Below the pieces are notes generated by a model. That model was not told where the DNA came from. It ran no database searches and was given only the letters and a program-made list of their open reading frames with translations. Source: Sphaeroforma arctica JP610 (lineage: Eukaryota). From it: a DNA stretch of 36,438 bases. Below are positions 9,156 to 36,300 of this stretch, one piece after another. Every line of letters begins with the position of its first letter. Position 1 is the first letter of the stretch. Position numbers and translations under genes: made by a program. The DNA lies in the NCBI RefSeq assembly GCF_001186125.1, contig NW_014040217.1, positions 4,083 to 40,520 on the forward strand, read 5' to 3'.

Positions 9156-10575
9156 TTACTCGGTTACTCTATTACGTTTGGGCTTTGGTCTTTGTGGTCC
9201 CCGATGGTGGATGGGACGTTTCTTAATGCCTTTTGGAGGTACGTACATTCCATGCTGTTTAAAGCTGGGAATGTATGATGTCTGTGGATAGATCTTACAC
9301 ACTTCGGGTCGCTTATTCGATGGTAAGATTGTTTCTGCATCAGCCTTATTTTTGTGTAAGCGTTTGCGAAACTTCTTATTAAAATCCTTTAGTACATCCG
9401 GATCATCAAATGCTGATGGTGGAAGATCATACTGTGCTCCATCGGCGAGCTCCGTAGTGTAATATGTCATATCCTCATGTTTGTACTTCCCTAGAATCTA
9501 CTTAAACTCGTAAGACATAAGAGGTGTTATAGCTTCACATGTGCGACGAAGGATGATTTCTGTTGTAGGGATTCGATGTGGCCCGATATTTAAGGCACTA
9601 GAGTCATCAACGTTGTTAACTTCATACGTTCCGCTCTTCTTATCGGCCACAGAGATCATAAATAATCCAATATATTTAGCCGTAAGCACAGTTGTATCGA
9701 AGTTGCGAGCCATATCGTTGACTATATTGTCTACCTCAAACTCGACTATTTTCTTGGTGTCATTCCATCGCTTTTGTCTCTTCTTAAGAGCGATATCCCT
9801 CATCTCCCTTAAGCAAGGATAGACCACATCTCTGGTCCGACACATCTTCTCTAACCATGGTAACACATGATCATCTTGAGACTCTTTGTTGAAGGGGATC
9901 TGTAATTCACTATAACGGCCCAGGAAATAGTGAGCGGGTGTTGTACCAGTGACTAAATCAGGGGATTCGCTTATCTGTGTCTGTACTCAATTGATTGAGT
10001 ACGGCCACATGTCAGCATCATCAAGTAGTGCTCCTCGCATGAACTCCTTCATCTTTCTGTGTCGTACCTCGTTCGCACCTTGTGTCTGAGGCTTGTAAGG
10101 TACACCCATCGTATGGCATGATCCCGCAACGAGTGACAGTGTCGTCATGACATCTCTTGTAAACTCACTACCGTTGTCGGAACATACAATAGCTGGCCAG
10201 CCGAAATCTGCGAAACATTTATATATGCTCTCAGCCACAGTTTGTGTTGATTTATCTTTCAGCGGATACGATACATTATATCTTGGTGCGACATCAAACA
10301 CGTGACAGACATATTATTCCTTCGTGCGTTCGGACGTGGGTAGCTCAACCAAATCAATGATATCCCGGCGCCAAGACTCGTCATCTGATACGCTGCGTAA
10401 AGGTGCGCATCCGTAGCGCTTGATCCAGTTAACTTCGCAGTTGTTACATTCGTGATACACCTGAGATATATAATGCTTGAGGTTCGGGTTTACGATTTCG
10501 TACCTCTTGCAATCTTTCTCAGTTCTAACCTTATCCATGTGCTTAAGAGCATGATTTTGTCATAACCACTTCAGA
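9156..10575 (-). pseudogene. Integrase (HHCC, DDE core, GPY/F-like) plus chromodomain-like C-terminus of element A
   Basis: NHALKH...CNNC; D(IIDL)-D(SDNG)-E(GANE); AKYIGLF; YEFK*ILGKY...YYTTELADG...PSAFDDPDVLKDF, then a basic tail. Disrupted by stops and frameshifts. Confidence 0.88.
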
Positions 10576-11010
10576 ATCGCCTCCTGTGATTTACTTATTA
10601 CATTGAAATCAGGAGGTGAGGATTCCCGCGTCATCACCTGGACTCGAAGACTCGTCTTGTCCAATCTCGCCTAAAGCTTCTATATCGTGAATCCGACTGA
10701 TGTTTGTTCTATCCATTAGTTGAGTCACATGATCATATACCTCGGGAAAGTCATTCATCAATTGCTTAAGCAATCCAGTTTCGGCTTGGTATGCAGTTTC
10801 CCTGTCAGACCGTATCTTGTTGTAGAAGGCTTTCGCTAGTGTTGTGCTCCTCGTTGATTCCTTTAAATTTGGCTGTATCTCGGTAACACATACTGCAGGT
10901 GCTTGTGTTGTCCCAGTCTCTGATTGAGACTTAGGATTCAAGAGTGGAATCTTGGATTCCTCAACCTTCTGTTTGAAAGTCTCGGATGGTGTCCACTTGG
11001 TTGTTCCAAC

Positions 11011-11415
11011 TGGACCTATTCGACATATAATAGTATGTCGCCAAAGCGTCTTTTGGACTGCACGGATACCCTGGTAGGGAAAAGTATCTACCTCTCTATC
11101 CACATAGATCGGCTCACATTGAATCATTGAGATCAACTGTGGTAGCCATGTATCTGAGTGTCTTAGGGAACAACACAACGTGATGGTAGCATCTTGAATA
11201 TGTACATAATTTAGCAACGGTGGTATTAATAGCTATGGAGGATTTGCCCAGGCATTCTCGTGAGACAAGTCTATCTGGAATCCGTCTCCTTCCGGATGTT
11301 CCAGTGACCAGTACCTCGGCAGTTGCGCATTATGATGAGCGGCAAATATATCTATGGTATGTGGTCCATATATGTTGTCAGCGATCTTAAACCACCTAGG
11401 ATTGGCCATTCAATC
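11011..11415 (-). pseudogene. Dam-like DNA N6-adenine methyltransferase domain in pol of element A
   Basis: One frame reads D*MANPRWFKIADNIYGPHTIDIFAAHHNAQLPRYWSLEHPEGDGFQIDLSHENAWANPP*LLIPPLLNYVHIQDATITLC...WLPQL...HTIICRIGP. Both stops (11410-12 TGA, 11233-35 TAG) are one change from TGG and align with Trp in copy B. Confidence 0.85.
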
Positions 11416-12094
11416 TGTAGCTAGTAACTCCCTAACCATCTTGTTATAGTCTGGTACGAAGCGAGACAACATGTCGGTAAATGATTGTGAATATCCGGTA
11501 TATGTGTTATGCCGAAAGAAAATTTTGCGATCGTGTCATGCCACCGACTGACTAACTGTGAGTTAGGTTTCATGTTCTTTAGGTGTTGCAATGACTTCTG
11601 ATCACATAGCACGTTAAAGTGCGTGCCATATGGATAGTCCTTAAAATGAGTGAGTACAGTAACAATAGCCAAAAGCTCTTGTTGCACGGTTGGGTAATTG
11701 ATCTGAGACGAATTCATGGCCCTGCTAAAGAACTGTACATATCATGGTTTCCCATCAATCATTTGATACAAGACGCCACCGAGTGCCATGTCGGACGCGT
11801 CTGTTGCTACCATGAATGGAATATCATCCTTTGGTGGCTGGACTATTGGCGCCTGTTGACCCACTATTTTGAGCTGCTTAAATGCGTCATCACAGTCTTT
11901 GGTCCACAGTGCGCCTAGTTTGCCTCTATGAAATCTCAAATGTCCAAAGGGCTTTAAATAACTTACCAGGTATGGTACTCCGTCAGATGAAAAGTTGCCG
12001 AATCCGCACATGTTGTTGACATCCTTACCCGTGGTAGGAGTTCTCCAGTCTAGCAAGTGGTCGACCTTCCCGGGATCGATCATAATTCCATCCC

Positions 12095-12819
12095 TGTAAG
12101 ATTCGGTCTATCAAGGCGATATTAACGCCTTAGACTAATTAAACGCGTAGGTAAAATTTAAGTATCGTGACATTCAAAGTAAATTAAAAAAATGAGTCTT
12201 TTAGTAAAGTTAGGTATGCCTCGTGAAAACAGCATTACTCTGAGGGATTGTGAGGCTGAGACATTGCCTATATATAATCCTCTCAGTACTGTTTCCGCCG
12301 AAGGGATTTTATTTAGTGTTTCGTTGTCGCTCTATTAGAAACTATAGTATGTTTCGTTGGGGCGAATCCGAGAGACTCATAAAATCCTATCTTTAGAAAA
12401 CAATTAAATTTGAATTTAAAAAAAAAAGACTCTTGATGTCCTTAGTTATTGCATTAACCAATATCGTGCAACTTATCAAGAATTACCGACTTAGCCTTCA
12501 TCAGACTGGCACATCTGGTTGGCTGATCGGAGGATAAACTAGGTAACGTTAATAGTCCCTAGAAATCTATGTTCGGTTGAGCCATCTCGCTACCGAAGTA
12601 TTCAGATATAAATAGATTTGGAAAGTAAATATAGTTATATTAATAGAACTAGACCAAATCTTATGTTTGGTATTTTACAGGGGCCTTTTTAATGGCCTTA
12701 TCCAAATATCTGATATGTAAAATGGAAAGATATTAATTAATAAAACCGTCAAAAACCATATAGTTTACGTACTGCTTAAGTTGTAACATAGAGTCTAGTG
12801 TGGAGGCCCGGCTATTACA
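12095..12819 (-). mobile_element. Solo LTR (725 bp) inserted in the RT of element A
   Basis: TGTAA...TTACA termini; 4-bp TSD TCCC (12091-94, 12820-23). Removing it restores LGYRVSGDGIMIDPGK. 12095-12315 is homologous to the reverse complement of 23428-23649. Confidence 0.92.
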
Positions 12820-15475
12820 TCCCCGGATACTCGATAACCCAACAACTGAATCTCGTTAACACCGAAGTGACATTTATTACTGTTGACCTTAAAGTTGTGC
12901 TTGTCGAGTCTATCTAGAACCTCTCGCACAACCCTTTCGTGCTCCTCTTTGGTTTTGGTGAATACCACAATGTCATCAAGTATACTTGTACATTGTCCAT
13001 TTCCCTAAACAAGTTTTAGGCAGGTAACATGTGTAACCCAAAAGGGGCGCCTTTGAACGAATATTGCTGACCCTCCCAGGTAAAGGTGAATACTTCCGGT
13101 GTGGTTTGTAGATCTTCATCTGGTGGTAGCCCTGCTTCAGGTCGATAGTGGAGAATATCTTAGCTCCCTCCATGCGCCTGAGTAGTTCGTTTATCCTTGG
13201 TAAGTGAAAAGTGTGCGTCGGTATCAATATCCAAACACACCCGAACTTTCTTCAGCGTCCCGTCAGAATTGAATTGGTCGACGGCTAAAAGCGCTAGGTT
13301 GACGGGAGTCGGCTCGTATTTGACTGTGATCACTCCGTCATCTAACCATGCTTTAACCTGTTCTCGTACGACCTGCTCATGACGCCATGCAACATAGTTA
13401 CGTGTAGGACAATTCAGCTTCGAGAAATCTACTCTCGTCAGGTATAGACTAACGTATCCGTTATTGAATTTGAACTTAGACCAGTCAGAGATCTGAATCT
13501 TGTCGTTCTCGAAAATCAAGTCCTTGAGTTTCTCTGTGAAGTGAGGGATCATCTTCTTCACAGTCTTCGAAGGTTTATATACCGGTTTCAACAAGTTGTC
13601 GTCCGACTGATCCTTCTGTGGTTCAATGTTAGTAGGTAAGCCTGTAATTGTGATACCTAATGACAATAAATCACTCATACCTACTATGAGATCATAGTCT
13701 AGTGAAGTGTTATATATGACTGCCTTAGTAACTATAGTACGTTGGTCTGTCAATGTAAACCTAAGATCGATTGCCATTTCTCTGCAAGTGATCTCTCTTT
13801 CATCAGCCAGTTTCAACATAGCTGGCTTTGACTTTCGAGTTACGTCTGTCATTTTACAAAATCTAGAGGATATACATGAAATTTGCGAGCCCGGATCCAG
13901 CAACGCTTTATTTCTTGTCCGTTAACTCGTATATCTAGGATTACACGATCGTCTTGAGGTGCGTCCTTTTGTCTTAGTGACAAGACCCGGTATGTTTGTC
14001 ACTTAACTTCAACTTTTGGTTTCACCTTGCATGTATGCTTGTGGTAATCTCCAGTCCCTGTACAGTCGGCACACTTCTCGATAAAGTGCTTACACTTTTC
14101 TGCGTGCCTTCCATTCCATCTGCCATTCGGCTCATGTTGGGTCATTCGCCAATTGCAATCAGTCTCACTACAGTTCTTGACCTCCCTAAGCCTGGGCTTA
14201 GGGTTACCTGCCGGCGGTCCATTTCTTTTGGTCTGGTTATCCTTAGGGATGACATTGTTCTTGTTGCTTTCAGAACCATTATAAACACAAAATACATAAT
14301 ATCCCTATAGTCACTAGTAGTAAGGGGCTATACCTCTTGGAATCAAAGACGTAGATCTAAAACGAGTATGAACACACTACTCTGTGTCAATAAGAGATAC
14401 AAATAAACCCTGATAACAACAGTAACACTACTGAATGTTAGCGTCGCAATAAAACAAGAAACCCCCACACACCATGGGACAACACATCCTCACACTCCAT
14501 GAGGTAGAAATAAAAGGCCAAGAAATCACATCCAGTAAGAACAAAGTAAAAGACTAAAGACTAGAGTAATGCAACAACAAGAACAGCATAGGTACAAACA
14601 AACTAATGAGAACACCACTCAGTAATTAGTTAGAACATATTGTAAATTTGGTATGGACACTCCAGTCCTAAATCACAAGGCGATATACAAGATTACTGTA
14701 GCTACACATAGATTACAAGGATAAACCAACACTAGAAGACAATAGTGTAGCAAAACTAACGGCCAGAAGCCAAATTTCACACAAAAATCCGGACACATGG
14801 ATAACAGTGACAACGTAAAGAATACATGTACACGTGCCAATAACAAAGACTACCAGGAATCAGATAACACATATCGAAATTCAAACATACTAGGCATACC
14901 AATACGTTGTACATCACACACGGCAGCGGGTATAAGCTGACGTATGCACACCACACAAAGCACAGACCACAAAAGATATCTGATAATATCTGTATAAACG
15001 TATACAAGTAGTATTACAGGTGTACAATGAATACTACAAGGTATATAAACATAGGAGGAAGTTCGGAACACCACCGAGACTCAAATAAAAATGAAATATA
15101 ATAGAAAATTTGTAAAACCAAATTACAGGTTTACAAAACCAAAAACCAAGTCACGAGAGAAACTAGGTTTACAACCAATAAACCATCATAAACCCAAGTT
15201 TATCATCTCAAACCAAAAATTCTTCAAATAAACCCAGGTAACTCGAACACGAGCAATTCAAGCCACACAAGCACAAGGCCCTACAATCAGCACGGACACC
15301 GCATGCCACACGGGGACGCAGAAACAGGTAATAAACAAATCTGATTCAACCAATTTACTGATGCATTACAAATATATCCTAACCACACCCCACACGCAGA
15401 ACAGTCAATGACGTCTGCACCATACCAACTCACCAATTATGACACAACAGTCAGTGCACCAAGTACAAAACTAAC

Positions 15476-16419
15476 ATGGGAAACACGACTACAAAATTTA
15501 GAGGAGTCAAAACGACCACAACAAGATGCCAATGTGGCACAATATCAAGAAAAATGCACGCAGCATTTGATCGCAAATATCAAGAGAAGTATGTACACTT
15601 CCAAGAGGGGAACATTGTGATGATTCGGTACCTAGGTGAAATGAATAAAATGGCAGCACTATATGGAGGACCATACAAGGTAGCAAGCAAAGAGGGCAAC
15701 GTATATTTCGTCCGTAACCTTGATGGCACTCGAGCCCCCGAATATCCTAACTCGGTCATTGATGAGCTAATTGGTTTAGTCAAGAAGGCTAGTGAATCAG
15801 AAGGTTTCACTACCAACAATCAAATCTAACAATCAGAAGAGACTCAATTCTCTTCGATACTAGACCACAGAGAATCCACAAGAGGTGGAGGAACCCAGGA
15901 CTACCTATTGCAATGGACAGATGGAGAGCGCACCTGGACACAGGAATCAGACATCGCAGATCCTGATATTCTTACGATATACCGACAGCGTGAACGACGC
16001 AAGCGAAGACAATCCAGGCCGAAGCAGTCAACAGCAATCAGCATTGATGAAAGATCAGCGAGCAACAGGCAGCGCACAAGGCGGGGAACTTAGCCAAGTT
16101 TCATTGACACCAAAGGACACTCCCACTTTTCTCACCTTGAAGCATACTCTGCCCACACACCAGAGGGATAAGAACCAAAGACTCAGTTGAGAGCCACCGT
16201 TGAGATGCGTTTTCCCAAGCCAAGTTGTAATCAACCGAGAGCACAGGTCAAGACTGACTCTGATGAGCGTAGTAGAGTACTCCTGTTATTTAGTATAAAT
16301 TAATTTATTAAGTAATATGTTAGAATGGATAATGGTGGCAGGTTTTTCATCTTATGACCCCTAAGGGACAAGTTTTTCCCTGTACAAAACCACCAACCTC
16401 TAGATAATCGAGTCCTACA
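15476..16419 (+). mobile_element. 3' end of chromovirus-type element C: integrase GPY/F tail, chromodomain, PPT, 3' LTR
   Basis: FQEGNIVMIR...ALYGGPYKV; SILDHRE...QDYLLQWTDGERTWTQESDIADPDILTIYRQ; PPT AAGGCGGGGAAC at ~16078-16089; LTR ~16090-16419 ending CTACA. Confidence 0.85.
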
Positions 16420-16462
16420 AGATGTCACTTTTTACTCCTACGCCGGCTAAGAGTTGGGGGGC

Positions 16463-16776
16463 TGTAGCATCCAGGGGCCAGATTATCAGAAAAGCCAATC
16501 CTACACCCAAAACCCAGGATTATCAAATACTGAGTTTTGGATCCAGGATCCAATATTTCTGATGATAGAGTGATCAGAAATATAGCGGGATTACCGGCAG
16601 ATGATACCGGGACCCCCGCGTGTGAGAGAAACACTTAAGTAAATATTGAGTCTAGTGTAGAAAATACTAAACACATATAAAGACTCAATGCGAGTGCTTC
16701 AGCTGGGGACTTAACCTAGCTGAGAGATTCGCACTTGAGAAGAGGTCTATTGTTTCCTTTACTCTCAAACTCTACA
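16463..16776 (+). repeat. 3' LTR of family D (314 bp) with upstream PPT
   Basis: TGTAG...CTACA termini; preceded by AAGAGTTGGGGGGC; homologous to 26521-26843. Confidence 0.85.
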
Positions 16777-17147
16777 TACTTCGCGCCAATGCATATTATC
16801 GGATGGAAGCCTTTACGTAGGGTATCCTGGCCCAAACACTGTCCACACTGCCGCTTAATTTATGTAGCCAGTTCTAATGCCCCCGGCCAAACGTGTCCGT
16901 TCTGTTGTAACTATTGGACAGTATCGGCAGCGCCGTGGTGGCCTTGCTCATGCTGTGCCTGTGTGAGTTGTGTACGCCGTTGTTGTTCCACTGGTGTGGC
17001 ATTCGCAAAGGCCGGTTGTGCCCCTCACTAGTTAACGCCACGGAAATATCTCGTGCCGTATCCAAACACTGATGGTATGGTGTGTGTCGATGTTCGACAT
17101 AACCTAATCTTTGTGTAAAGCTCTCGGCTAGCTGGAATCCTGACGGC

Positions 17148-17548
17148 GGCCCCACTCGTGCAACGACCGTGTGCCCCGACGACGTCTTTCCACAGGCATA
17201 CTTTGCATACTTTAGAAATGTATGCGGGGTCCGGGGTACTAACACTGGCTTGGCTTGCAATAATTATTTGAAAAGGTCAAACCATGGTGCGCGAGGAGTC
17301 CAAAGTAAGCACGCCGTCGCTATAGCCCCGTCCGCTTTGATCTTCCGAAGCACGCGGTGTATCAACCTCCACGGCGGGTTCATCCACCCGTCCACCATCG
17401 CCCAGTTATGATCAAACGTACCGTCGTGTTCGTACTTTGTTCAAAACCTAGGAAGCTGCGCGTTGTGGGGTGCTGCGAACACGTTTATGTTATTGTGTCC
17501 AAAGACACGTTGTGCTTGTTCGAAGTAGCTGGGAAATAATTGCCAACA
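17148..17548 (-). pseudogene. Dam-like DNA N6-adenine methyltransferase domain in pol of element B
   Basis: WQLFPSYFEQAQRVFGHNNINVFAAPHNAQLPRF*TKYEHDGTFDHNWAMVDGWMNPPWRLIHRVLRKIKADGAIATACLLWTPRAPWFDLFK*...HTVVARVGP; intact NPPW at 17369-17380; in frame with RH. Confidence 0.9.
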
Positions 17549-17815
17549 GTCTGCATACAGGATCTCTGGCATCTCTGTTTCCGCGGTCCCTTCATGTATG
17601 CGACTCAGCATATCCGGCAGGACATTCCTCTCCCCCGGTATATGTGAAATGGTGTAGCTAAAGGGCGCTATGATGTGGTGCCACCTTTGTAGCATCGGAT
17701 TAAGCTTCAGTTGGGTATTCATATATACTGTGCTTTGTGATCCATAAACACCGCAAAGCGCTGGCCGTCGAGGTAGTCACGGAAGTGTGTCAACCTGTAG
17801 ACTAACGCTAGTAGT

Positions 17816-18114
17816 TCCCACTTTTCTCACCTTGAAGCATGCTCTGCCCACACACCAGAGGGATAAGAACCAAAGACTCAGTTGAGAGCCACCGTTGAGA
17901 TGCGTTTTCCCAAGCCAAGTTGTAATCAACCGAGAGCACAGGTCAAGACTGACTCTGATGAGCGTGGTAGAGTACTCCTGTTATTTAGTATAAATTAATT
18001 TAATAAGTAATATGTTAGAATGGAAAATGGTGGCAGGTTTTTCATCTTATGACCCCTAAGGGACAAGTTTTTCCCTGTACAAAACCACCAACCTCTAGAT
18101 AATCTAGTCCTATA
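17816..18114 (+). repeat. 5'-truncated copy of the element C LTR sitting in place of the RT of element B
   Basis: 17816-18112 matches 16121-16417 (297 bp, about five mismatches by eye). Confidence 0.92.
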
Positions 18115-20150
18115 AACCCTTCAACCACTTCTGTACCTGTTCATCGACATACGGTAACCACCGCTCGGGTACAAAGTTGCGTGTCGATCGTCTCATGCTC
18201 ATAACCTGCTCGCGTGTCACCGGTATCGCTACTTCACTCCCCTCTAAGCGGCAACGTGCATTGTCTACAATGTCGGCGTTCGCTTCTAACACTGCGACCA
18301 GCCTTGTCCGTCCTCCGTCGGGTTCGGTGGTGTTGGGGGCTTGACGCCGAGCCATAGGTGTAAGGAGGTCATCTAGTTCCGTTGGGTCGATGGGTGCGAG
18401 TGGTGACTGAATTCCGCCAATGTATACCCGAAGGTCCGTCATCATGTCCAGCCCTAGTCTAATATCGATGCTATCAGGGAGATTCATCAATTCGAACGAT
18501 CCATTGATGATCTCTGAGCGATAACGTATCGGTAGCACTTCTGTTGTCCCCAGGCGAGGAGTGCGTACCGCTCTATCAGTCAAATATATATATAAATCGC
18601 TGGGTACTGGTGTAATTGGTCGTCCTAAGAGGTCTGCGGATGCTCGTGCGATGCAACTACGGCTTGCACCTGTATCTACCAACGCTCGGAATGTACGACC
18701 ATTCACCTGCAATTGTATATAGACACGATTGTCGGAGGACAGCAGTGGGTCTTTTATTGCCATCACTGTCTTCAATGGATGCGTAAACGTAAATATCGGA
18801 CACCCTGAGGTCTCAGTGTTTCTTTGTTATCGGAGTCCATTGGGACTGCGATGTATCCGTTTGTGTATCCGCGGCCTGCTCGATGTCATTGGTTAGGATG
18901 GAGTGTATATGTAACTCCGTGGCCGACTGGCTATCGTGCCCCGGTCCGTCCTCTTGTGTGAGTACAGTAACCTGCGGTGTCGTCGTAGTTGAGGTCGACT
19001 GTCGGCTTGGGTATTGTGGTGGTTGGTGACCGGACCCTTGTGGTGGTGTAAATCGTTGTCCCATTGTAACCTCTCTCTGCTGCTGACTAGTGTCTGACGT
19101 CCGTGTTCTCACGTCCTGCCCCCCAGGTTGGGCCGCCCGATGATGATGGCAGCGCGGTATGTGTCGCAACCCTGGTGGTGCTTGTGCTCGGCAACCGTTG
19201 CACGTCGTTGGGTTAGTTGTTGGAGTCGGACGCTGTTGCCATTATTGCTGCTGACGCTATACTATGTGCGGGCTAGGTCTACTATTCGTCGTCTCCCCCC
19301 GGGCTGTGCTCCCATTGTGACCTCGACGGATGACTAAACGTTGAGTCGAACGAATCTGGGCCTCCTGGATATCCAGACTTAGCAACTGTAGTAATTCACG
19401 AGTCTCCATGAGCTGCCACTTTGGATGTAACTGTAACGTGCGCTCATATGTCCGGGATCCTAAGGTGTCCTCCAACAATTGAACTATGCAGTGGTTGAGC
19501 AATTTTTGCTTAAAGTCTGCGTCGGTCTGACAACGCTCGTGTGCCCGACGATGATTCTCCATAAGGTATGTCATCTGTTTCATCACTGGAACATTACTAA
19601 GCTTCTGGTGTCCCTTTTCTCTAGTTTGCGAAATGTGGGATCCACCGTGGCTTGAGTATCGTGTGAACAGATTTGTGTTCTTTGGAGTTCTGGTGTCCAT
19701 GCAACTAAACGTTGGTGATTGAATTTTATATAATTGAGTGTAGATTGCTCGGCTCTAAAGTGGTTCAACACCTTATAGAACCAACGGAAGCTCCATGCCT
19801 CATCTAGCCCCGAAATTTGCGTGTTCTTAAGGGCTTTACGTAGTGCCCCTTTAGTGTCGCGCTCCATAATGTTGCTGAGTTTGTACCGGTTAGAGGGCCT
19901 CTCAGGCCAACTACGCGGCTCGTGTGGTTCTGGTTTGTTCGCTGGTCGAGAGTCGTATGTTGCTCTCAAAGTCTCAAGTACACCCCGTAGAGCCACCGCT
20001 CGTAGTAAATCGTTCTTCTCCACTGCACTATAGAGCTCTTCTGACCGCTTGAGCATCCGGGCATGCAAGGCCTGGCGGTCAGCCGATATACTGTCCGGAG
20101 TAAGAGGTGTGATCTGTTGAGCTAGACGACGTCGCTTGTCTGCTGGCGTT

Positions 20151-21568
20151 ACTTGATTCGACAGAGTGCGTTCGAGCACTCGACGTGCTTCCAGACTATC
20201 GCCCATAGCTTCCTACACGAACTGTTGTCCCTGACGTTGTGCCTGGATAGACATCTCCATATTATCTCGGCGGATGTCTAGCGCATTCCTACCGTGTGGG
20301 TTCTGCGTAACTCGTTGTTGTTCTTGTACAAAGCTCTGAGGTGATAACGGTTCCTGTCGTGTATCATCCTCCTACTGATCCGACAACGTATACCCTACCC
20401 CGTGACGAGTCTGGTCCGCACCTTTGATGCGGAATTCGAGATTGTCCGGCGGCGGGGATTTCGCCCGTTGTAAGCGTTGTAACCGTCGATCGTATATCTC
20501 CAATAATGATTGCTGTTGTCGAAGTAGATTTGTCAGCTGTTCCGGTGTGTCATTGTCTCTCCCTCGGCTATGTCGGTTTTCTTGTCGACGATGACGCGGG
20601 TGCTTGCCCCCAGCAGCTCTTGAGACCTCTCGAGGAGTTGTACCTACTTGATGTGCAGTCTGCGATGCCGAACGTGTGCCTCTAACGGTTTAGGGTTACG
20701 TTGGTCCCTGTCTGTGAAATCCACATCACTAGGAGTTGTTATCCGCTCATCTCCTTGTTGTTGCACTGTTAGGGTCTGCTGAAGTATTGCATTGTTAGTA
20801 CGATGTTCCGCCTCCAGATCGTCCGACATGTCTCCACTAGCTGACATAACTTGATTCGACGGAGTGCGTCCGAGCATTCGACGTGCCATCAGACTATCGC
20901 CCATAGCTTCCTGCACGAACTGTTGTTGTGGTCAGATATACGATTTAGGGTTATTATGGTTTTTGTGGTTTGGTATACGATTTTGGGTTATTAATGTTTA
21001 TTTATGGATCGGTCATAAACTCAGTTTAGGGCTCTGATCCGAATACGTACATGCGCTAATCCTGTCGTGTAACATCCTCCTACTGATCCGACGACGTATA
21101 CCCTACCCCGTGACGAGTCTGGTCCGCACCTTTGATGCGGAATTCGAGATTGTCCGGCGGTGGGGATTTTGCCCGTTGTAAGCGTTGTAACCGTCGATCG
21201 TATATCTCCAATAATGATTGCTATTGTCGAAGTAGATTTGTCAGCTGTTCCTGTGTGTTACTGTCTCTCCCTCGGCTATGTTGTTTCCCTTGTCGGCGAT
21301 GACCCGGGCGCTTGCCTCCGGCAGCTCTTGAGACCTCTCGAGGAGTTGTACCTACTTGATGCGCAGTCTGCGATGCCGAACGTGTGCCTCTTAACGGTTC
21401 AGGGTTACGTTGGTCCCTGTCTGTAAAATCCACATCACTGGGAGTTGTTATCTGCCCATTTCGTTGTTGTTGCACTGTTAGGGTCCGCTGAAGTATTACT
21501 TCGTTAGGGATAATATTATTTATTAGTGCGATGTTCCGCCTCCAGATCGTCCAACATGTCTCCACTAG
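20151..21568. repeat. ~700-bp tandem duplication in the gag-like region of element B
   Basis: 20151-20228 matches 20849-20926 and 20353-20840 matches 21061-21568; a ~130-bp middle segment differs. Confidence 0.9.
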
Positions 21569-22770
21569 TGTCTGCGCGATCCTGGGTGCGACGTCTAAAA
21601 CCCCGTTGATGAATGTCATCTCTCTCGCGTTGTTCTGGCAACAGATGTTGTTGTCGTCGACTCTGTTTAATATTGGTTATGGTGGCCCTGAGTTATGGCT
21701 GTCGATTAATAAACGATGTGACGTTATCTTTGCCTCTCTTCCGCCTTATCATGTCATCGCTATTCGAATAACCTGAAGCCCTGTTGACGGTACATACATC
21801 GTCTACGTCTTGCTCTATTTCGTAGTATCGACGCATCGGCGTTGTCCCTGCATAGGCAATCGTGCCTTAAGCTAATCCCGGGTCTCGTTGTGGTTGCTCT
21901 TTTACTTTTCCAACTAACCCCTGCTCTTGGCTCACGTGCCACTGCTCTCTCGGTAACTCCATGCTCCCAACATCCGTCTTCCATCTCATCTAAGCACATG
22001 TTCTTTACTCCTTTCAAAGCTCATCTAATCCCCCAACGATTGTCGCCTCTAACCTCTCGTAGCTAATCAGTTTGTCCGCCAATATCACCCGTCGTTCTCG
22101 TCTGGGATCCTGGACTTACGCAAGCACTTGTCTCTTCTAACTCGCTTGGACGGCGCACCCCCACATTGAACGCACACACAAATTGCCATTGCTTTGTATT
22201 CACGTACACATTGATGTCACTTGCTTGCAGGTTCATCACTCATGGTACTAACGTATTTCACATTATTGTGCTCTATACTGGTGTATGAGCTTACTGTGTG
22301 TGCAACTTACTTCCTGTCTGTTTAACACTTGCTGTAATGCACATCTCTCCGTGTTCCTGTCTTTGCATGGATATCTGTTACCGTGAAATCTTACCCATGT
22401 CATACTGCCACTCCGATTATGTCTGACCACTATTTCTTATTTCAATTTTTTTACTTGAGTACTATATATGGTGCATCTTACATATATATCCCTATTTGAC
22501 ATTTTCTGACGTGTACGTCCACATTCCTTGTTGTCTTGGTGATCTTCCAACTTTTACACCTATCTTTTTTATTTATTATTTGTGTTCCACTTCGTCTTCT
22601 GTAATCTGTCATCTTTCTTCCTTGTTCTCTTCAACCTTCCTGGTGTGGCTCGGATCTGGCGAAGGTGTTAGTGCCCATAACGGTGCGGTTATTTCTTGAT
22701 GTGGTGTGGTTCGGAGTCTCCATGTCGATGTAAAGGTACATACTCTTTGGGTTTGTTCTATCATATCATC

Positions 22771-23427
22771 GCTGGAGTCTACGGCATGAAGAAACTCTGG
22801 CGGATCATCAAACGATCTGCGAAAGGGTTAAAAGTTCCTACTGACCATATTGCACTCCTTGCGATGCGGAAGTAAGATGGCTTCACTGATGACCCGCGCG
22901 GTCGTCGGGAGCAGCGTTGGCAGGAGGTCTACCGAGATATCGATATACGTATATACCACGTTCGGGGTAAAGGCAATAGGATAGCCGACATGTTTTCTCG
23001 GTTGACTCATGTAGTTGACTACGAAATGCAGCTAGCTCGGAAGCCAGCGAAAAGCACAGCGAAGCGTGTTCACTGGTCCCTAGTTGATACGTCCACCCCC
23101 AGAACGACAGAGTATAAATTGGCAGTGATGTGGTTCCGCCTGGCGGATGCCCGCTTCGGCCCCCACCATGCTGACGGATCTGCTCTTCCAGGAAGTCAAT
23201 AAATGATTCCCTTCTATTCTCCTCCTCTGAAGGGAGGGGTATGGGCGCTTTGCTGGCGCACTCTCAACTTATGGCTCAATCCTCCGTGGGAGGATTTAGA
23301 GCGTCTTTTTCTCAAGGTCGTATCCGATAAGGTGGTGGGCGTGACGGTCTGTTGCATTGGTTTTCGGTGATACACATGTTCCTCTTGGCATTGCACATAG
23401 TGATACCCCCCGCAGATTGAGTCCAGA
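22771..23427 (+). pseudogene. Retrotransposon pol fragment F: RNase H C-half plus Dam-like MTase
   Basis: One frame: AGVYGMKKLWR...VPTDHIALL...QRWQEVYRDIDIRIYHVRGKGNRIADMFSRL...EYKLAVMWFRLADARFGPHHADGSALPGSQ*MIPFYS...WRTLNLWLNPPWEDLERLFLKVV; NPPW at 23278-23289. Confidence 0.82.
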
Positions 23428-26400
23428 TAAATAAAATTTTCCTTCGGCGAAAACAGTATTGAGAAGATTGTATATAGGCAATGTCTCAGCTTCACAATCC
23501 CTCAGAGTATTGCTGTTTTCACGAGATATACCCAACTTTAATAAAAGACTCATTTCGTTTATTTTACTTTGAATTTTTTGAATTTAAACCGTTTTACGCG
23601 TTTATTTACTCTAAGTCGTTAACACCGCCTTGTGAGACCGAAATTTACACATTTTAAAGTTATTAAAGGTATTAACTACGCAGACTACTTGAAAGTAGTG
23701 GTGGTTAAATATCACGAAATTTTTCTTAACGTAGCTATTCCTTAAGAGAATAGACGAAAATCTCAATTAACATTTTATGACTAAGAAGGACAATACACCT
23801 TCTAAGAAGCAAAAGGCCGAAAAGAAGAAGATGGAGAGAGATGCAGCCATCGCCGCCGCCGCATCCACTGCCGCTGCCGATGAAGTGAATTGAGCCGTAG
23901 CCGAAGCTATTGTCGCTGGCACTAACAGCCAAGACAATGCGTCGGACAAGGGTGAGACCACTCCATCAAGAGAGAAGTCTCCCGAAGAAAGAGCCCGAGG
24001 GCCAAATATTGCCTCAACTTTGAAGCTTGCATTTACGAAGCCAAGAAGTGAGATACAGGGTGTGTCTAAGGACACCCCAGCTAATCCTTATAAGGAATCT
24101 CAGAAAGAAGTGTCACTGATTGCGGTAGAAGATTACGAACCTCAGAGGGTACCGCCAAAGGAACATGAAGAGGAGAAAAGCTCGAATAGCCAACCCGAAT
24201 CAAAGTCCAAGCCCACCGAGTCAACTCGCAGAAGCATGTTAACTGCTGAAAATACTGAACTCAAGAATCAATTATCTGCTCTTAAACAGAGTCTAGCCAT
24301 TGAACACGTAGATCGCATGTATGGATCTGGAGAAAACCCAGAGCGCTTTCACGAACACCTTTCTCCTGGAACCACAAAAGCTCTGCAGAAATGGACTGAA
24401 TGCAAATTAGAGAAGCCGCCTTCAAAAAGGTAGAAATCTGAGCGCAAACCCCGTAGCCGGCGAACCGGAACAATCAATCTGGCAATTAGCTTACGGGGGT
24501 TCACCCCCAGAGGAACAGGCGTGTTATACGCCCGAATAATCTCCAGGACATGAGTCCCCTATACTCGAGGGAATTATAGACCACGAAACAGGGAAGAATA
24601 CTCCGCCGGAAATTTCTAACTGGGGAGATGCCCCACGCCGGAAACCAAAGTCCACGGGACAGATAATCCCTATGCGTGGTGTATCTCAGATCGTGATACC
24701 TTCGGAGGTCTTCACTAATGATCAACGCAAACTATCCACAATGGATTGCGGCCTCCATCAACCCGTAGAAAACTTGCAATCTGATGAGGTGACGGAGCTT
24801 AATAAGACAGTCGACGACTACACCATTCAGATGGAGATTGCACACGATCGCCATGATGCTGAAGACGTAGTATACTATGCTAGTTTGATCGCCATTAAAA
24901 AAATACTGCAGGCTCAACGTAGGCGAGACCACCAACACAACCAGAAGTATAAGGAAATGATCAGACAACTTAAGTCAAACTGGGAAGCCAGCAGTCAAAA
25001 GTCTGAGTTTATCAATAACCATGATCTCGATACTTTGACCCGCACGCTGAATGCATTTGCAGTGATGTTGGAGACGAATGATGCTGCTCCACATCAATGG
25101 ATATCTGTACTTATGCAGTCGTTTGATCCTATAGGATCAAGCTACTTCATCCTTCGAAGACATCATGATGAATTAGGCCACTGCCCTGACTGACCGGCGG
25201 TTTATTGGTTAGTAACGATTTTATTAAGCAAGGACACGCGCAGCCCATGACTAAGTTCAATCTTAGCCGAACCAGCACCAAACACGCCCATATATAGTTA
25301 TATATTGAAGCTCGACGCGGACCTAAAACGCCCTGATATAAAGAAGAACGACATGCCGCGATGGTACGAGTTTCTGCCTATGTATGTGTTCTGTAAGAAC
25401 ATCGGAAACAATGTCCGAGAGAGTTTGTATACTGGGGCTCGTCGCAAGTATGCAAACGAATCTCGTGATATGGGACACTAGTCAAAGGTTTATTTGACTC
25501 AGCTAAATTGGGATCGGTTCTATCAGACTGTATCCTCCGTAAACCCTCCCGGACGAGTGACCTCTCGGGAGAAGGCGGCGAGAGAATCTCGGTAGACCTC
25601 AAACAGGAGGACCACTCAGACACGCCCTCGTGAGACTACTCAGAATACACGCCCTGTTAAGAAGGTGCGTGCCGCGCCTAAGGGCCCTGCGTAAAAGCAT
25701 ATCAAGAAGTGTGCGAATGACAATTGCGGATATAATATGTACCAATTTACCCCTGACGATTATTGGAACGAAAATCACGCACCTGCTTGCACACATTATC
25801 TCGCAAAGTGCAATAAGTGCGAGAAGACCAATGGCTATCACACTATCACACTAAGTCTTGCGACAAGGAGCCCGACATTAAGTTGGAGTGAAGGTACTAC
25901 CGGGTACAATCGATACGAAGACAATACAACAACCCCTTAAATGAACGTGTAATTATCCCTGTATATTGCAACGGAAATAAAAATCTTGCACTGATTGATC
26001 CTGGTTCAGAAATCTCTTGTATATCCGATCGCTTTTCGTTGATGAAAGATATCGAACGGCGAACGCAAACCACTCATCTTATTTCAGCAGATGAGAATAC
26101 TTCTAAGTGTGAACCATGGCCATCGATGATAAAATCTCCTTGGCCGATAATATAAATATCACCACTCAAGCTGTGATACTTAAGATGTTACAGAAACACT
26201 AAATTATAGTCGGAATGAGCAATCTGTTCACATTAGGTATAACTGTAACTGAGCTACCGAACAACATCGATCCATTAAAAGATCAATAAGACGATAATTG
26301 TTTAAAACCATATCACCACCGTCTGACACAGCCAAGGCATTATTGCCTGACTTTGTAAATAAGATTATGAATATTATTTTAATAAATCTGAAGAGTAAGA

Positions 26401-26520
26401 TTACTGACTGGTAAGTTCCGTTTTAACGACAGATACGTCAGCCTTGACTTAACCAAGGTAGATTTTACCCCGCTGAAGTGTGCCTCTAAGAACTATGTAT
26501 CCTGGAGACACGAGGCTGTA
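23428..26520 (+). mobile_element. 5' part of Ty3/gypsy element E (relative of A): partial 5' LTR (23428-23649), gag pseudogene (23777-25891), protease and linker
   Basis: LTR ends TTTACA at 23649; ATG at 23777; PR ALIDPGSEISCISDRF versus A ALLDPGSQISCISSRF; NYVSWRHE versus A NYVAWRHE; cut off by an LTR of family D. Confidence 0.88.
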
Positions 26521-26843
26521 TGTACCATCTAGGGACCAGATTATCAAAAAGCCAATCCAAATCCCAAATGCCAGAATAATCAAATACTGAGTTTTGGAAT
26601 TGGGATTGGAATATTTTTGATATTAGAGTCATCAGAAATATTAGCGATAGAATCGGTAAGCTATACTAGGACTCCCGCGTGTGAGAGAAGCACTCAAGTA
26701 AATTCTGAGTCTAGTGAAAACACAAATAAAGACTCAGTTTGGTTCACTCAGACTAAGGACTTTTCCTAGCTGAGATAGCCGTATTTAAGAGGTCTGTTGT
26801 ATCCATTTGTCTCGTACCTTTCAGCTACTCTCCAAACTCTACA
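26521..26843 (+). repeat. LTR of family D, second diverged copy (323 bp)
   Basis: TGTA...TACA termini; collinear similarity to 16463-16776; no TSD. Confidence 0.85.
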
Positions 26844-27421
26844 TTTTTTACAATATCCTTACTTAGATAAGTCAACCAGAGTCACTATAAGTTAAAGAAT
26901 ATATCGTAATTAGTGAATTATAATTCATCACAGTTCTGAATACCACGAGGAAGTAACACCAGAGTGAAGAAGTGTTATTACAAACGTGAGGAGGCTAAGT
27001 TCTCAGTAGGGCCAACAAAAAGAAGGTGGATTCACTATCCAGGACTGCCGCGGAAAGAAGAACGAAGAGGAGCAAATAAGAAGAAAAACCCCTCAGATAA
27101 CGTGGCCTCAGGACAACAACCAAGGTATCAATATCGTGTCCAGAAGTAAGCTGGACACGGGTCAAGGCTGTACAAGTGTTGTTATGATCACAAAGAGAAT
27201 ATCCGCGTGTAGAAAAATTAGAAGTTTCGCATTGATTATTTAAATAATGTTGAGGATTTTCAAACAAGAAAGTCCACTGAGATCAGGGGCCCTACACAAC
27301 AAAGCGAGGTAGACTAGTGATAAAAGAACATAGGTGACATAATTTCTATCAACTAGCTAGAGTTATGAGTCTACGAATTAATACACGAGGAGAGCCCAGT
27401 AGTATTGACCGATGATGAACA

Positions 27422-30400
27422 ATGTTAGGCCCAATGAGAATGACGCTCTTCAACCCACAAGGACTCAACATGGACAACGCAGCACATACAGATAAGTGTC
27501 TGAACGTTATATCGATTTTAAGTCAGGTTGATGTTATGTGTGTGGTTGAAACCTGGCATAACACCACATTTCTTAATCATATACGCTCGAACACACACTA
27601 CCATATCCTACACCACACTACACAGCATAATATCTTACACCCTTCACACTGTGGTATTGGCATATTTTCCAAACACTACCCATCGAATTTTCAACTTGTA
27701 CACTCTTCACCGTACGCGGTGTTCTTTGTGTGCTTTGGCATTCATATGACCGTGTTCTACTTTCCACTCAAATCGCTTACTGAAGAAGACGTCAGGCGAT
27801 ACATGAATCCCCCCGAGATTGGCGGTTTCCAACCAGATGTCGTGTGGGGAGATTTCAACTTCAAAGCTCGGAAGTATGGCCACGCATCTACAAATCACGG
27901 ACTACGTATGAAAACGATTGAAACTATTCTGCGTAAGACGTGGCACTTGGACTACCTCTATGCTGGCGGCTCAACTGGTACTGAACATGCGTATCATCGA
28001 CCTACCACCCCCGCCTCCCTCCAAACCTATAAGCTGACGGACTACGGTATCTGTGGTGACCACACCTTTGGACTCGATCTCCAGATACTTCCCACGAATC
28101 AAATCCATCAGCCCCAACAAATGCCAGCAATGCCGCCGCCTCCGGACCAACGCCTCCCCTCCCATGGATATAACCGATATCGCCATCGACTGTATCACCT
28201 ACGCAACAAATCCCGCGCGCGATTATTCCAAGCCGAAATCAGGGCGCATCAGAACCTACTACGGTCGTATCTCACTTTACATGGACCAGCGGAAGGGCTG
28301 CTACGAATCCTCGACCGCATCTGGCGCTATGCCACTAACCCACAAATCTTTGGAGGGTTCTATTATGACTTAAACAGACCTTGGGTTCAGCAGCTGCCAA
28401 ACCACTCGTTCCGCCCACGTCTGACCGCCCAAAGCAATGCTCAAATGTTCAAAGATATTGCGTACCAACGACGGTCTCCGCGCCAACCCTGCATACCGGG
28501 TACCGATGACACAGGCGCTACCCTCGCTGGCTACTTTGAGGCCCTATTCAACTCTACAAACCCGTACGTGGTTCCACCGGATACCGAACCCTCTCCTGAT
28601 GTCACTTCCACCATACGCTCCGACGATGTAATGGAGGCAATACTACGCTATCCCAATAAGGGACCTGGCCCCGACGGGATCCACATCCTCCTCCTGAAGG
28701 CCTCAGTGAAGCGCTCTACCGAACGTCAGACATTGGGACGCCCCGACGCCAATAGCCCACTGATTAGACTCCTTGCCGAAGCATTCACTGAGCTACTGAT
28801 GGCGGGTACCTTTCCCGCAGCCCTGAACTGCAGCCTCCTAACAGCGCACCCAAAGAAAGCCGATGCAGATTTCACCTCCCCCGCCGACTTCCGTCCCATC
28901 ACGCTTACACAAATAGTCAGACGCATCTTTGAAAAGTGCTTTCTTAATCTGATTACGAGCCACCCCGGCTCTGCTACCCATGCTATCCAAGCTGGCTTCA
29001 AATCACGGTACTCCTGTCATACCCAAGCACTTGCCGCCATGGAATCTGAGACACAGTCAGAAGAGGAGTGGAACGATGTCTGTCTGGACATAACCAAGGC
29101 ATACGACAAGGTCGCTCTCCCACGCCTATGGGTACTTTTGCGTCACGCTGGAATGCCCGAAAACTGGATCAACTGCCTCCGCGCGCTGTTTGAGAGGGTC
29201 CCTACCCGAGTGACATACCGCGGCACGCTCTCGTCTCTATTCCTTAGAACGAATGGCATCCTACAAGGCTCAATCGTCGGTCCCCAGCTCTTTATTATCT
29301 ACATGGATTCCTTAGCTGTCACGCTAGCACAATTTCGGCCCAAGCTCTTCCGTTCATATTTATTTGTCGATGACACACGGATCCAAGCCCCTCGATCGGT
29401 TTCGCTCCAGCCCTTCTTAGATGACATTGATGCGTGGGGACGCAAATCTGGCCTCGAACAGGGTGTCATTAAACCCCGAGTACAATCTACCGACTTGCGA
29501 CACGCGGCACCAACCATCCGTATAAGTGGTGAGCTTATCATGCCGACGCTTGCAGACGCACCTTGGAACACACGTTACCTCCCCCTGAAACTGGCGCCCA
29601 CACATGCCGAACCGAAACACTACAAATACCCAGGGTTCCCACTCTCTCACGGAGTACCAGGAATCAACCTCGCTAGACATATGGAATTCCTAGTTGCAGC
29701 ATTGTCACTGGGTATCGCCTCTTTCCGCGCTTATGGCTTCCATGGCTTCAGCTGGCGACACCCCCGCAACCGACTGGTGATGTTCAAGACATTCATCCTA
29801 TCCACGGCTACATATGGGATGAACATTATTGCCTGGGCTCTGCCTATGTGGAAGGATGCGTTGGACCCCCTATTCGAACGCTTTAACTCAGCACTCATTC
29901 AAGCAGCAGCCATCATCACGGGCACTAAATACCCTCGGTTTCCTAAACATCAAACAAACTTACTTCACTTTTGCGGCCTGCTCCCCTTGCGACAATTCGC
30001 GGACTACCTCGGAGGTTGCCTGGGAATAAAACTCGACTCAATGGCCAGCACAAATCCACTTACCCCTCTGACGCAACCCGCCTGGGCCCACGATAAACCA
30101 TCACTGAGCTTCCCGTACAGTATCTTTGCTCACCTGAAAACTGTACACAAAACCACGGGCGGGCGTACACCCGACCATGTAGCCCTCCGCCAACGCTGTG
30201 ACGACATCAGGAAGAACTCAACAAAACGTTGGTCCAACAAGGAGATCGCGGCAATGGCCCGGCGCCAATACTACTACCAACTGGTTATGGTAAACCGCCA
30301 ACCTCAAACCGAGACACAGCCAGTCACGACAGCTTCAATTGCTGCTTCGAGTATACACCAATNNNNNNNNNNNNNNNNNNNNTTTCGTACTCTGCACTAA

Positions 30401-34634: not shown

Positions 34635-36300
34635 ATGGCGAGTAGTGAGGCAGATACACCGGTTAGGGGTCTTAGGGCAACAAATAATGAAACCGATCGT
34701 GGAAAGGGCAAGGATCTTGAAGAGGGCAAGGCTCCGGCAGGGGGCGAGGCTCCTGAAGAGGACGAGGCTCTTGAAGAGGATGAGATCGAAGTGGTGGCAA
34801 TTAAGAGCCAAAGAAGAGCCAAAAGAGTTCAAACCAGCATCTATGATTGCACAAAGTTATACAGAAGTTTAAAAAGAAGAAGTGAAACTTGATTTTTTAG
34901 CTGAACACTTCACGGCGGACAAAAGGAATCCAGCGAAATTGGCTTCTTGTAATTATTGCGGTAGTGGTAAGCTTTTCGCATGGAATAAAAAGAAAGCAAG
35001 CAACGCCTTGATTCACTATGAGAGCACGCATGAGAAGTACTGGTATGACGACTTGAGCAAATTTGTTACAAAGATAGTAGAAAAGCGAAACAAGATTTCG
35101 GGGCGTCAACAGAGCCTTACGGCATTCGGGGCTACCCCGAATCGACTGCCACAAGTACAATACAATACGGCTAAAAACCTTGCCGTCCTACATTGGGCTC
35201 GTTGTGTGGCTTCATACGATCTTCCTTTCAATTAGGGAGAAAGGCTCATTTTAGAGAATAGTTGGCTGGTGTAGTCGCAGTACCAACCACTGCACACCCT
35301 AGTTACAACCCTTGTGCTCCGGAAACCATTAGAAAGTATTTAACAATATTAGAAAAATCTATTAGAGATATAGTATTGAACAAATGGAGAGACGCTCTGC
35401 GATATTACAATCTTCCTTTTGCTAGTCTAGAATTTTTTTTAATGAAAGGATGCTACCGGCACTAATTACTTTGGTAGCATCTTACTTTGGTATGAACCTT
35501 ACCCTGTTGGATAACAACCTACCAAAATATCTGTATTCTTAGGATTGAAAGAGGTGGTAGGTTTTCATTCGGCCATAAACTTTGCAGAATGGCAGGTACA
35601 AGTCCTTCGAGATTGGGGTATTCCAAGAACAATGCCTGACACTAATTTTAAAATTGGTGTCTTAGGTGAGAATGATTTTGTATGGCTGCATCCCAAACAG
35701 GTATGCTGCAAATGTTCAAGCAGCAATGAAGCTCCCAGCACATGCCGCTATGGATTGTTGTGCTCATAGGATTGCCCTCGTAATGAAGAAGGCATGTGGG
35801 GAGCCTTGATTGCTGCTACCGATATGATGCGTGTTGTATTTAATGATAAGCAGATGGGCTTGCATAAGCACAAACTCGAGAAACAGCTCAATATACTGGA
35901 AGCTCTTATAGGGATAATATTATTTATTTCAAAAATGGCAAGTATGTATGATACAATGTATGAACATATGGTATGGCTCTCAAAGTCGCTGTAGTGGTTC
36001 AGGATAGATGTTCAGAAAACGAGGAGGCGATGCAAAGTCTTGTGGCACCGAAATTCGACAGCAAACCAATATCAAACACAATATAATTTTGTGCCCAACG
36101 AGCTGCATACTTTAATAAAAGTACGGTAGGCGCCGATAAACGTGTGCAAGCTCAGGAGATGTTATTATATGACAATTGGCTAGAGCTATAGCAAACGGCG
36201 GTGTCCAGTGGTCTGGTGTGTATGAAATAATTGGGCATGATGACTATCTTTGTACAGCAATCATGAAGCTAATCGAAGATCCGAAGGAAAATGATAAACA
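34635..36300 (+). pseudogene. hAT-superfamily transposase pseudogene with BED zinc finger
   Basis: KRRS..EHF...ASCNYC...SNALIHYESTH (BED finger); YDLPFN; NYFG; HSAINFAEWQVQVLRDWGI; AANVQAAM...DCCAHRIALV (CxxH at 35756-35767). Many frameshifts and stops; 3' extent uncertain. Confidence 0.85.

What the first reader, a model, noticed from the sequence alone, without database searches (positions are those of the whole stretch)
16780..17815. Second, divergent element with the same RH-MTase-integrase order and an intact NPPW
Seen: in element B the RH end (HIPGERNVLPDMLSR) runs in frame into WQL...INVFAAPHNAQLPRF*...WMNPPWRLIHRVLRKI, then a linker and an integrase finger (HEQGH...WPG...CGQC...GFHP). 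A and B share protein motifs (FAA.HNAQLPR; HTIICRIGP/HTVVARVGP) while their proteases are distant. Inference: the fusion is old and was retained under selection across families, not a one-off nested insertion.
Basis: partly seen in the sequence, partly recalled or inferred. Interest (0 to 1): 0.85.

Follow-up and report, generated by a model that had tools for sequence, protein, structure and literature searches.

The report
Broken methylase-carrying gypsy retrotransposon copy
This is a broken fragment of a gypsy-type jumping gene whose intact relatives carry an adenine-methyltransferase domain between RNase H and integrase; the design is real, likely old and kept by selection, but a 2026 preprint already described it in this likely host group, and what the domain methylates is untested.

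Summary
The motifs are at the stated places. RNase H runs in frame into a Pfam Dam domain with NPPW. The copy itself is dead: two stops in the methylase, frameshifts, RT replaced by a 300-bp insert, and the integrase cut by an LTR. Intact single-ORF PR-RT-RH-Dam-IN relatives exist for A and B. A, B, Sphaeroforma arctica and Abeoforma proteins form one Dam clade (100/98), mirrored in the RT and RT+RH trees (B, lacking RT, by proxy). Variants segregating among B-family copies are 22 synonymous to 6 non-synonymous (40 of 124 rows seen). No duplication brackets the domain. It belongs to the ichthyosporean DAM-LTR lineage of Fernandez-Moreno et al. (bioRxiv, May 2026), so it is already known, and this scan has found such elements before in other genomes. 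Two additions. The preprint says the lineage lacks chromodomains, yet 11 of 14 integrase tails carry a divergent one. The methylase model's best structural match is the RNA cap methylase PCIF1/CAPAM, not E. coli Dam, which keeps an RNA substrate in play.

The parts
17731..17817 (-). Element B: middle of Ty3-type RNase H (ELLA...DHKA), cut on its 5' side by the 300-bp insert
   Evidence: Pfam RT_RNaseH E 8e-7; frame differs from the RH tail
17600..17719 (-). Element B: RNase H tail ending HIPGERNVLPDMLSR, in frame with the methylase
   Evidence: 48-59% identity to P0009, P0171, P0172 and P0010
17129..17560 (-). Element B: Dam-like (PF05869) N6-adenine methyltransferase domain; NPPW intact, two premature stops
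   Evidence: Pfam; model pLDDT 91; best fold match PCIF1/CAPAM; most other family contigs have sense codons at both stops
16953..17128 (-). Element B: linker with a frameshift near 17020
   Evidence: S. arctica SARC_09702 reads Dam C-terminus, linker and HEQEH in one frame; other contigs differ by one base here
16777..16952 (-). Element B: integrase HHCC finger to GFHP, two stops, cut off by the LTR of element C
17816..18115 (+). 300-bp copy (98%) of element C's 3' untranslated region (16121-16420), in place of about 975 nt of B's RT/RH
18113..18826 (-). Element B: aspartic protease and start of RT
   Evidence: Pfam gag-asp_proteas E 3e-7; best hit P0009/P0171, 36%
15443..16030 (+). Element C: integrase C-terminus and divergent chromodomain, 61% identical to the tail of Dam-bearing P0009
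16449..16776 (+). Element C: polypurine tract (16449-16462) and LTR (16463-16776, TGTAG...CTACA)
   Evidence: related LTR at 26521-26843, 75% over 307 nt
9201..13921 (-). Element A: decayed PR-RT-RH-Dam-IN pol of a second family (intact relative P0010, 64% in Dam)
   Evidence: Dam E 2e-4; rve E 5e-9
22912..23358 (+). Element F: RNase H tail and N-terminal half of a very decayed Dam-like domain (WLNPPW)
   Evidence: tblastn with B, E 7e-9, 22%; no Pfam hit; unplaced in tree

Best explanation
B is a dead fragment of a Ty3/Gypsy LTR retrotransposon of the ichthyosporean DAM-LTR lineage; its intact relatives make one Pol polyprotein PR-RT-RH-Dam-IN, whose methylase likely marks the element's own nucleic acid inside the particle. 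Shown: the domain order, intact single-ORF relatives, shared ancestry of A and B in the Dam tree and (by proxy for B) the RT trees, and purifying selection on the family's domain. Inferred: a DIRS-type methylase was captured once by the ancestor of this clade, before the families found in Sphaeroforma and Abeoforma split, and was inherited vertically. After insertion this copy decayed, lost most of RT/RH to a 300-bp filler from its neighbour, and was cut by element C. Mechanism, inferred and taken largely from the preprint's model (about 45%): being part of Pol, the domain is packaged with RT and integrase. It would put N6-methyladenine on the RNA-DNA hybrid or nascent cDNA, which host AMT1 would then maintain at ApT, so new insertions look like active chromatin and stay transcribed. 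The confidence value is for the identity and history; the mechanism is the 45% step.
For: Pfam Dam plus Ty3 RH. 18 of 28 scanned hits have RH-Dam-IN in one protein. Nearest named proteins are S. arctica SARC_09702 (76%) and SARC_07150 (64%); three Abeoforma proteins lie in the same clade. Trees. RT+RH and Dam distances correlate among 8 intact Pols (Mantel rho 0.49, p 0.038). Mean between-family identity is Dam 42%, RT 44%, RH 38%, IN 36%, linker 22%. NPP[W/F] in 16 of 17 clade proteins. Segregating variants 22 synonymous / 6 non-synonymous against 29% synonymous expected (p 1e-7, crude pN/pS 0.11); changes private to this copy 1 / 11 (Fisher p 5e-5). The preprint (whole main text read) reports more 6mA and more transcription on DAM-LTRs than on other LTRs in S. 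arctica and A. whisleri.
Against: No activity has been shown: the preprint's E. coli assay was negative, and its 6mA enrichment is a correlation. Iyer et al. 2016 (PMC4738411, passages) judged DIRS-type domains likely inactive. The best fold matches are RNA methylases. B has no RT, so its place in the RT trees rests on P0009; in the Dam tree B is not specifically sister to P0009, and that bootstrap had not converged (0.862). The selection test saw 40 of 124 variant rows, chosen by the tool for support, from contigs at least 80% alike, in four runs labelled as one organism. The host is inferred from protein hits; no genome was held.
Confidence: 0.88

Rival explanations
1. Same element and history, but the domain is an RNA N6-adenine methylase or cap-proximal RNA binder of the PCIF1/CAPAM kind. 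It would act on the element's genomic RNA, affecting stability, packaging or escape from RNA surveillance. The genomic 6mA would then follow from transcription, laid by host AMT1.
For: The top six Foldseek rows are PCIF1/CAPAM (TM up to 0.67, against 0.40 for E. coli Dam). VIA-align over 48,161 chains ranks CAPAM first (Z 9.8, rmsd 3.0, 129 aligned), then RNA methylases (8.7-8.1), M.TaqI 7.9, E. coli Dam 7.6 and T4 Dam 7.4. Iyer et al. place DIRS methylases in the PCIF1 clade. No activity on E. coli DNA. The preprint never mentions PCIF1, CAPAM or m6Am.
Against: No Foldseek hit reaches E 0.001, and the lead over the next chain is about 1 Z. A shared fold shows no substrate. CAPAM needs a helical domain for cap and RNA binding (PMC8287941, passages), and the 144-aa element domain has none. 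Pfam places the sequence with phage Dam.
Confidence: 0.25
2. Same element and history, but the domain is kept as a non-catalytic nucleic-acid- or SAM-binding module, for example a Pol spacer, chaperone or template binder.
For: Negative heterologous assay; Iyer et al. predict inactivity for DIRS copies. Unchecked scan notes report DAM-LTR lineages that keep the domain but lost the motif.
Against: In this clade the catalytic NPP[W/F] is kept in 16 of 17 proteins, and N61-P62-P63 are among the nearly invariant columns.
Confidence: 0.2
3. The arrangement is a local accident: a DIRS fragment nested into Gypsy copies, or an assembly chimera.
For: The locus is a nest of fragments. The 300-bp near-duplicate inside B could be a misassembly, and no listed contig piece spans the stretch.
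Against: Three separate copies in the window have RH running into Dam. Intact single-ORF relatives come from independent sources. The RH is of the Ty3 type. No bracketing repeat of 7 bp or more. Purifying selection.
Confidence: 0.03

Closest known systems
Ichthyosporean DAM-LTR lineage (Fernandez-Moreno et al., bioRxiv 10.64898/2026.05.21.726589; Pirum, Abeoforma, Sphaeroforma arctica)
   Same: Ty3/Gypsy Pol with a DIRS-derived PF05869 domain and a conserved NPP triplet; my clade holds S. arctica and A. whisleri proteins.
   Different: The preprint says this lineage lacks chromodomains; 11 of 14 tails here carry a divergent one, including Abeoforma P0021. Its main text has no selection test ('purifying' 0 hits) and no PCIF1 comparison. 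Its supplementary figures were not seen and may give the exact domain order. B itself is a pseudogene fragment.
DIRS tyrosine-recombinase retrotransposons (RT-RH-MT; PMC3783388, passages)
   Same: Dam PF05869 domain directly after RNase H.
   Different: DIRS lack a protease and a DDE integrase and have inverted repeats. B has a protease and an HHCC finger, and its relatives' RTs sit on the LTR side of a 98/97 split.
PCIF1/CAPAM cap-specific m6Am RNA methyltransferase
   Same: Best structural match; NPPF versus NPPW motif; same clade in Iyer et al. 2016.
   Different: No WW or helical domain; 15% identity; substrate untested.
Plant chromoviruses with group II chromodomains (PMC3350952, passages)
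   Same: Chromodomain fold after the integrase with the chromo-box Y and W kept; by eye, C lacks the first and third cage aromatics.
   Different: The clade's tails score below Pfam's cut-off, and the A family tail is not detected. No common origin with plant group II domains was tested.

Membership tests
DAM-LTR, ichthyosporean lineage | PF05869 Dam domain inside Pol | tested here: met
DAM-LTR, ichthyosporean lineage | Ty3/Gypsy backbone (protease, Ty3 RT/RH, DDE integrase) | tested here: met
   B: protease, RH and HHCC finger. RT and integrase core are seen in A and in intact relatives; B has lost them.
DAM-LTR, ichthyosporean lineage | Dam domain groups with Sphaeroforma/Abeoforma elements | tested here: met
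DAM-LTR, ichthyosporean lineage | Conserved NPP catalytic triplet | tested here: met
DAM-LTR, ichthyosporean lineage | No chromodomain (descriptive statement in the preprint) | tested here: inconclusive
   B's own 3' end is lost. Clade tails score below Pfam's cut-off, matching the preprint's E 1e-5 screen, yet a custom profile and a fold model find a chromodomain. This reads as a detection limit of the preprint, not as non-membership.
DAM-LTR, ichthyosporean lineage | Paired LTRs around a full element | tested here: inconclusive
   B's ends are lost. C, a P0009-like element, has a PPT and a 3' LTR. The metagenome scan gave no close full copy.
DAM-LTR, ichthyosporean lineage | 6mA enrichment and host AMT1 | not testable with these tools
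   no genome or methylation data
DIRS | No protease and no DDE integrase | tested here: not met
DIRS | RT in the DIRS group | tested here: not met
   Relatives' RTs are on the LTR side of the split; tested by proxy because B has no RT
DIRS | Tyrosine recombinase ORF and inverted terminal repeats | tested here: inconclusive
   No recombinase among the ORFs scanned and no inverted repeat around B among the 25 longest of 61 pairs listed, but B is truncated
PCIF1/CAPAM | Methyltransferase fold with NPPF-type motif | tested here: met
PCIF1/CAPAM | WW and helical cap-binding domains | tested here: not met
   The 144-aa model is all methylase core; no such Pfam family in 23 members
PCIF1/CAPAM | Methylates cap-adjacent Am | not testable with these tools
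   needs an assay

The most novel reading that the evidence does not exclude
The retrotransposon 'Dam' is a stripped-down PCIF1-type RNA methylase that writes m6A or m6Am on the element's own RNA inside the particle. The ichthyosporean lineage would also pair it with an overlooked group II-like chromodomain, making it a two-module epigenetic element and revising both the substrate and the architecture given in the 2026 preprint.
Probability: 0.2. Interest if true: 0.7.

Novelty: already known. Interest (0 to 1): 0.27.

Why it matters
Transposons that carry their own methylase show how selfish elements exploit host epigenetic marks, here 6mA, a mark of active chromatin in many protists. The class and lineage are already in a preprint, so this copy is not a discovery. 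It adds three things: direct evidence of purifying selection on the domain, intact Pol sequences (P0009, P0010, P0171, P0021) for assays, and two testable corrections, an overlooked chromodomain and an RNA-methylase-like fold that could explain the failed E. coli DNA assay.

Tried and rejected
Direct dN/dS between A, B and F was not computed: at 22-31% protein identity dS is saturated. Family polymorphism from laid contigs was used instead. No RNA holder is on record; one laid run is only a guessed RNA run, so expression was not assessed. Depth over B's protease and Dam was similar in four runs and higher over C; the tool warns that depth is no copy number, so it was not used. The idea that C is B's own family's 3' end stays unproven: C is 61% like P0009's tail while B's domains are 36-41% like P0009. 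The metagenome scan with P0013 gave 4 distant loci, which were not analysed. Word-index searches with B found one protein each. A sequence search of the PDB with B gave only a weak Ty3 match (E 0.05). No Rfam hit in 14000-23700. A's tail as a chromodomain: no Pfam hit, below the shuffles, and only sub-0.9 atlas leads; not supported. The atlas gave no result for B's methylase. No VIA-align search was obtained for the chromodomain model. Paper searches: 'DAM-LTR' found only the preprint; 'LTR retrotransposon + Dam + methyltransferase + 6mA' found 19, one relevant; 'Sphaeroforma + retrotransposon + chromodomain' found 3; 'PCIF1 + DIRS + methylase' found 1. Subscription papers are not covered. Scan look-ups by place and by sequence returned nothing.

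Full report
Observation. The window is eukaryotic, intron-bearing DNA packed with retroelement fragments; no whole genome is held. On the minus strand the RNase H tail (17644-17600) runs in one frame into WQL, INVFAAPHNAQLPRF, WMNPPW and HTVVARVGP. This stretch is Pfam Dam PF05869 at the curated cut-off. It holds two stops (17443, 17266). The HHCC finger (HEQGH, WPG, CGQC, GFHP; 16952-16800) is in another frame with two more stops and ends at 16777, against the end of an LTR (16463-16776, TGTAG...CTACA, preceded by a polypurine tract) of a plus-strand element C. Upstream, a further frameshift splits RH, and about 325 codons of RT/RH are replaced by 300 bp that are 98% identical to C's 3' untranslated region. 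Beyond that lies an open protease. So the order RH-methylase-integrase is real, but B is a pseudogene fragment. Element A (Dam 31% identical to B) and element F (22%) show the same RH-to-Dam run-on.

The lesions belong to this copy. Contigs from four public runs, all labelled as one organism, were laid on the region. Other copies differ by one base at both frameshifts and mostly carry sense codons at both stops. S. arctica SARC_09702 (76% identical) reads from the Dam C-terminus through the linker to HEQEH in one frame. A profile search of 1.84 billion proteins gave 1,139 hits, 150 listed. I scanned 28 of them, picked as long or top-scoring; 18 have RH, Dam and integrase in that order in one protein. 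P0009 and P0171 are the best full-length hits for B's protease (36%) and Dam (40-41%), and P0172, P0009 and P0171 for its finger; P0010 is the intact A family. Named relatives are S. arctica and Abeoforma whisleri proteins, so the host is likely Sphaeroforma or a close ichthyosporean (inference).

Is the fusion old? In a 69-row Dam tree (near-duplicates, P0075 and Dam-only fragments left out), A, B, SARC_07150, three Abeoforma proteins and 11 unnamed Pols form one clade (100/98; bootstrap not converged). All 10 members with an RT form one clade in a 57-row RT tree (98/86). With P0171 and P0172 added, 12 stay together, with no Dam-less element inside, in an RT+RH tree that includes the 45 best of 95 Dam-less hits (SH-aLRT 96, quick method). 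RT+RH and Dam distances correlate (rho 0.49, p 0.038, 8 proteins). B lacks an RT, so it enters the RT trees only by proxy. F is a long branch that can be neither placed in nor excluded from the clade (AU p 0.44). Across all Dam-bearing Ty3 Pols the trait changes six times, in line with several captures or losses.

Is it selected? Of 124 variant rows over B's domain the tool showed 40. The 28 that segregate among other copies are 22 synonymous and 6 non-synonymous, against 29% synonymous expected (p 1e-7; crude pN/pS 0.11). The 12 that are near-fixed in the other copies, and so private to this one, are 1 and 11 (Fisher p 5e-5; p 3e-4 at a share threshold of 0.8). That is a constrained family and a neutrally decaying copy. 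Between families the domain is as conserved as RT (42% against 44%; linker 22%), and NPP[W/F] is kept in 16 of 17 proteins.

What is known. A May 2026 preprint (10.64898/2026.05.21.726589; whole main text read; supplementary figures not seen) defines DAM-LTRs, with at least four captures of a DIRS Dam domain by Ty3/Gypsy elements. One is an ichthyosporean lineage in Pirum, Abeoforma and S. arctica. It reports more 6mA and more transcription on these elements and no activity in E. coli. The Dam domain after RH in DIRS is long known (PMC3783388, passages). Twenty earlier notes of this scan on other genomes hold the same search words, and the eight shown cite the same preprint (unchecked); I had found it independently. 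B is therefore a member of a described lineage.

Mechanism. As part of Pol the domain would be packaged with RT and integrase (established Ty3 biology, recalled). The likeliest role (about 45%) is methylation of the element's own hybrid or cDNA, later maintained by host AMT1; this is the preprint's model and remains untested. A confident model of B's domain (pLDDT 91) matches the RNA cap methylase PCIF1/CAPAM best (Foldseek TM 0.67 against 0.40 for E. coli Dam, none at E below 0.001; Z 9.8 against 7.6, next chain 8.7). Iyer et al. 2016 already put DIRS methylases in the PCIF1 clade and thought them inactive RNA binders (passages); the preprint does not mention PCIF1. An RNA substrate (about 25%) or a non-catalytic role (about 20%) stays open. 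CAPAM's cap-binding helical domain (PMC8287941, passages) is absent, which argues against literal cap methylation.

A side result. Element C's tail is 61% identical to the tail of Dam-bearing P0009 and has a weak Pfam Chromo hit (E 0.001, below cut-off). A profile from 8 Pfam-called chromodomains scores 11 of 14 clade tails above the best of 700 shuffles, including Abeoforma P0021, which has Dam and tail in one protein; A, P0010 and the truncated P0022 are not detected. C's tail folds as three strands and a helix (pLDDT 85), and all 40 listed Foldseek rows are chromodomain proteins (best E 2.6e-3). This conflicts with the preprint's 'lacks chromodomains', most likely because of its E 1e-5 threshold. 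By eye the domain resembles plant group II chromodomains, which lack two cage aromatics (PMC3350952, passages).

Verdict. Observation largely confirmed, interpretation supported, novelty low: already known, interest 0.27.

Noticed in passing
window 15443-16776 (+): Element C: 3' end of a P0009-like (Dam-bearing family) element with a divergent chromodomain, PPT and LTR; its LTR end cuts B's integrase.
   Followed up: yes
window 17816-18115 and 16121-16420: 300-bp, 98% identical copy of C's 3' untranslated region standing in place of B's RT/RH; repair filler from the neighbour 1.7 kb away, or misassembly.
   Followed up: partly
window 23894-26843 (+): Gag-protease of an A-like element (45-50% to A's protease), cut at the start of RT by an LTR 75% like C's.
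   Followed up: partly
window 12095-12315 and 23428-23649: A short repeat (84% alike, opposite strands) that interrupts A's pol and lies just beyond F's Dam; very high summed contig depth over the second copy; MITE-like, unidentified.
   Followed up: no
window 27419-30400 (+): 993-aa LINE-like frame with endonuclease and RT domains, open up to and through an N gap.
   Followed up: partly
window 20352-20840 and 21060-21568: Tandem duplication (90%) in the region upstream of B's gag-like frames; some other contigs skip part of it.
   Followed up: no
window 2442-3936 (-): Intron-split aquaporin-like gene with two NPA motifs (by eye; label recalled, not scanned).
   Followed up: no
window 34873-35235 (+): Frame with a CxxC...H zinc-finger pattern resembling a BED finger of a DNA transposon (by eye; label recalled).
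   Followed up: no
protein P0075: 2382-aa protein with protease, endonuclease, Dam, RT, RH and integrase: Dam lies before RT, and its RT is on a very long branch; perhaps like the LINE/LTR chimeras the preprint reports in Euglena.
   Followed up: no
proteins P0173, P0174: Dam-less Ty3 Pols with clear chromodomains that branch nearest the Dam-bearing group; candidates for the pre-capture state.
   Followed up: partly
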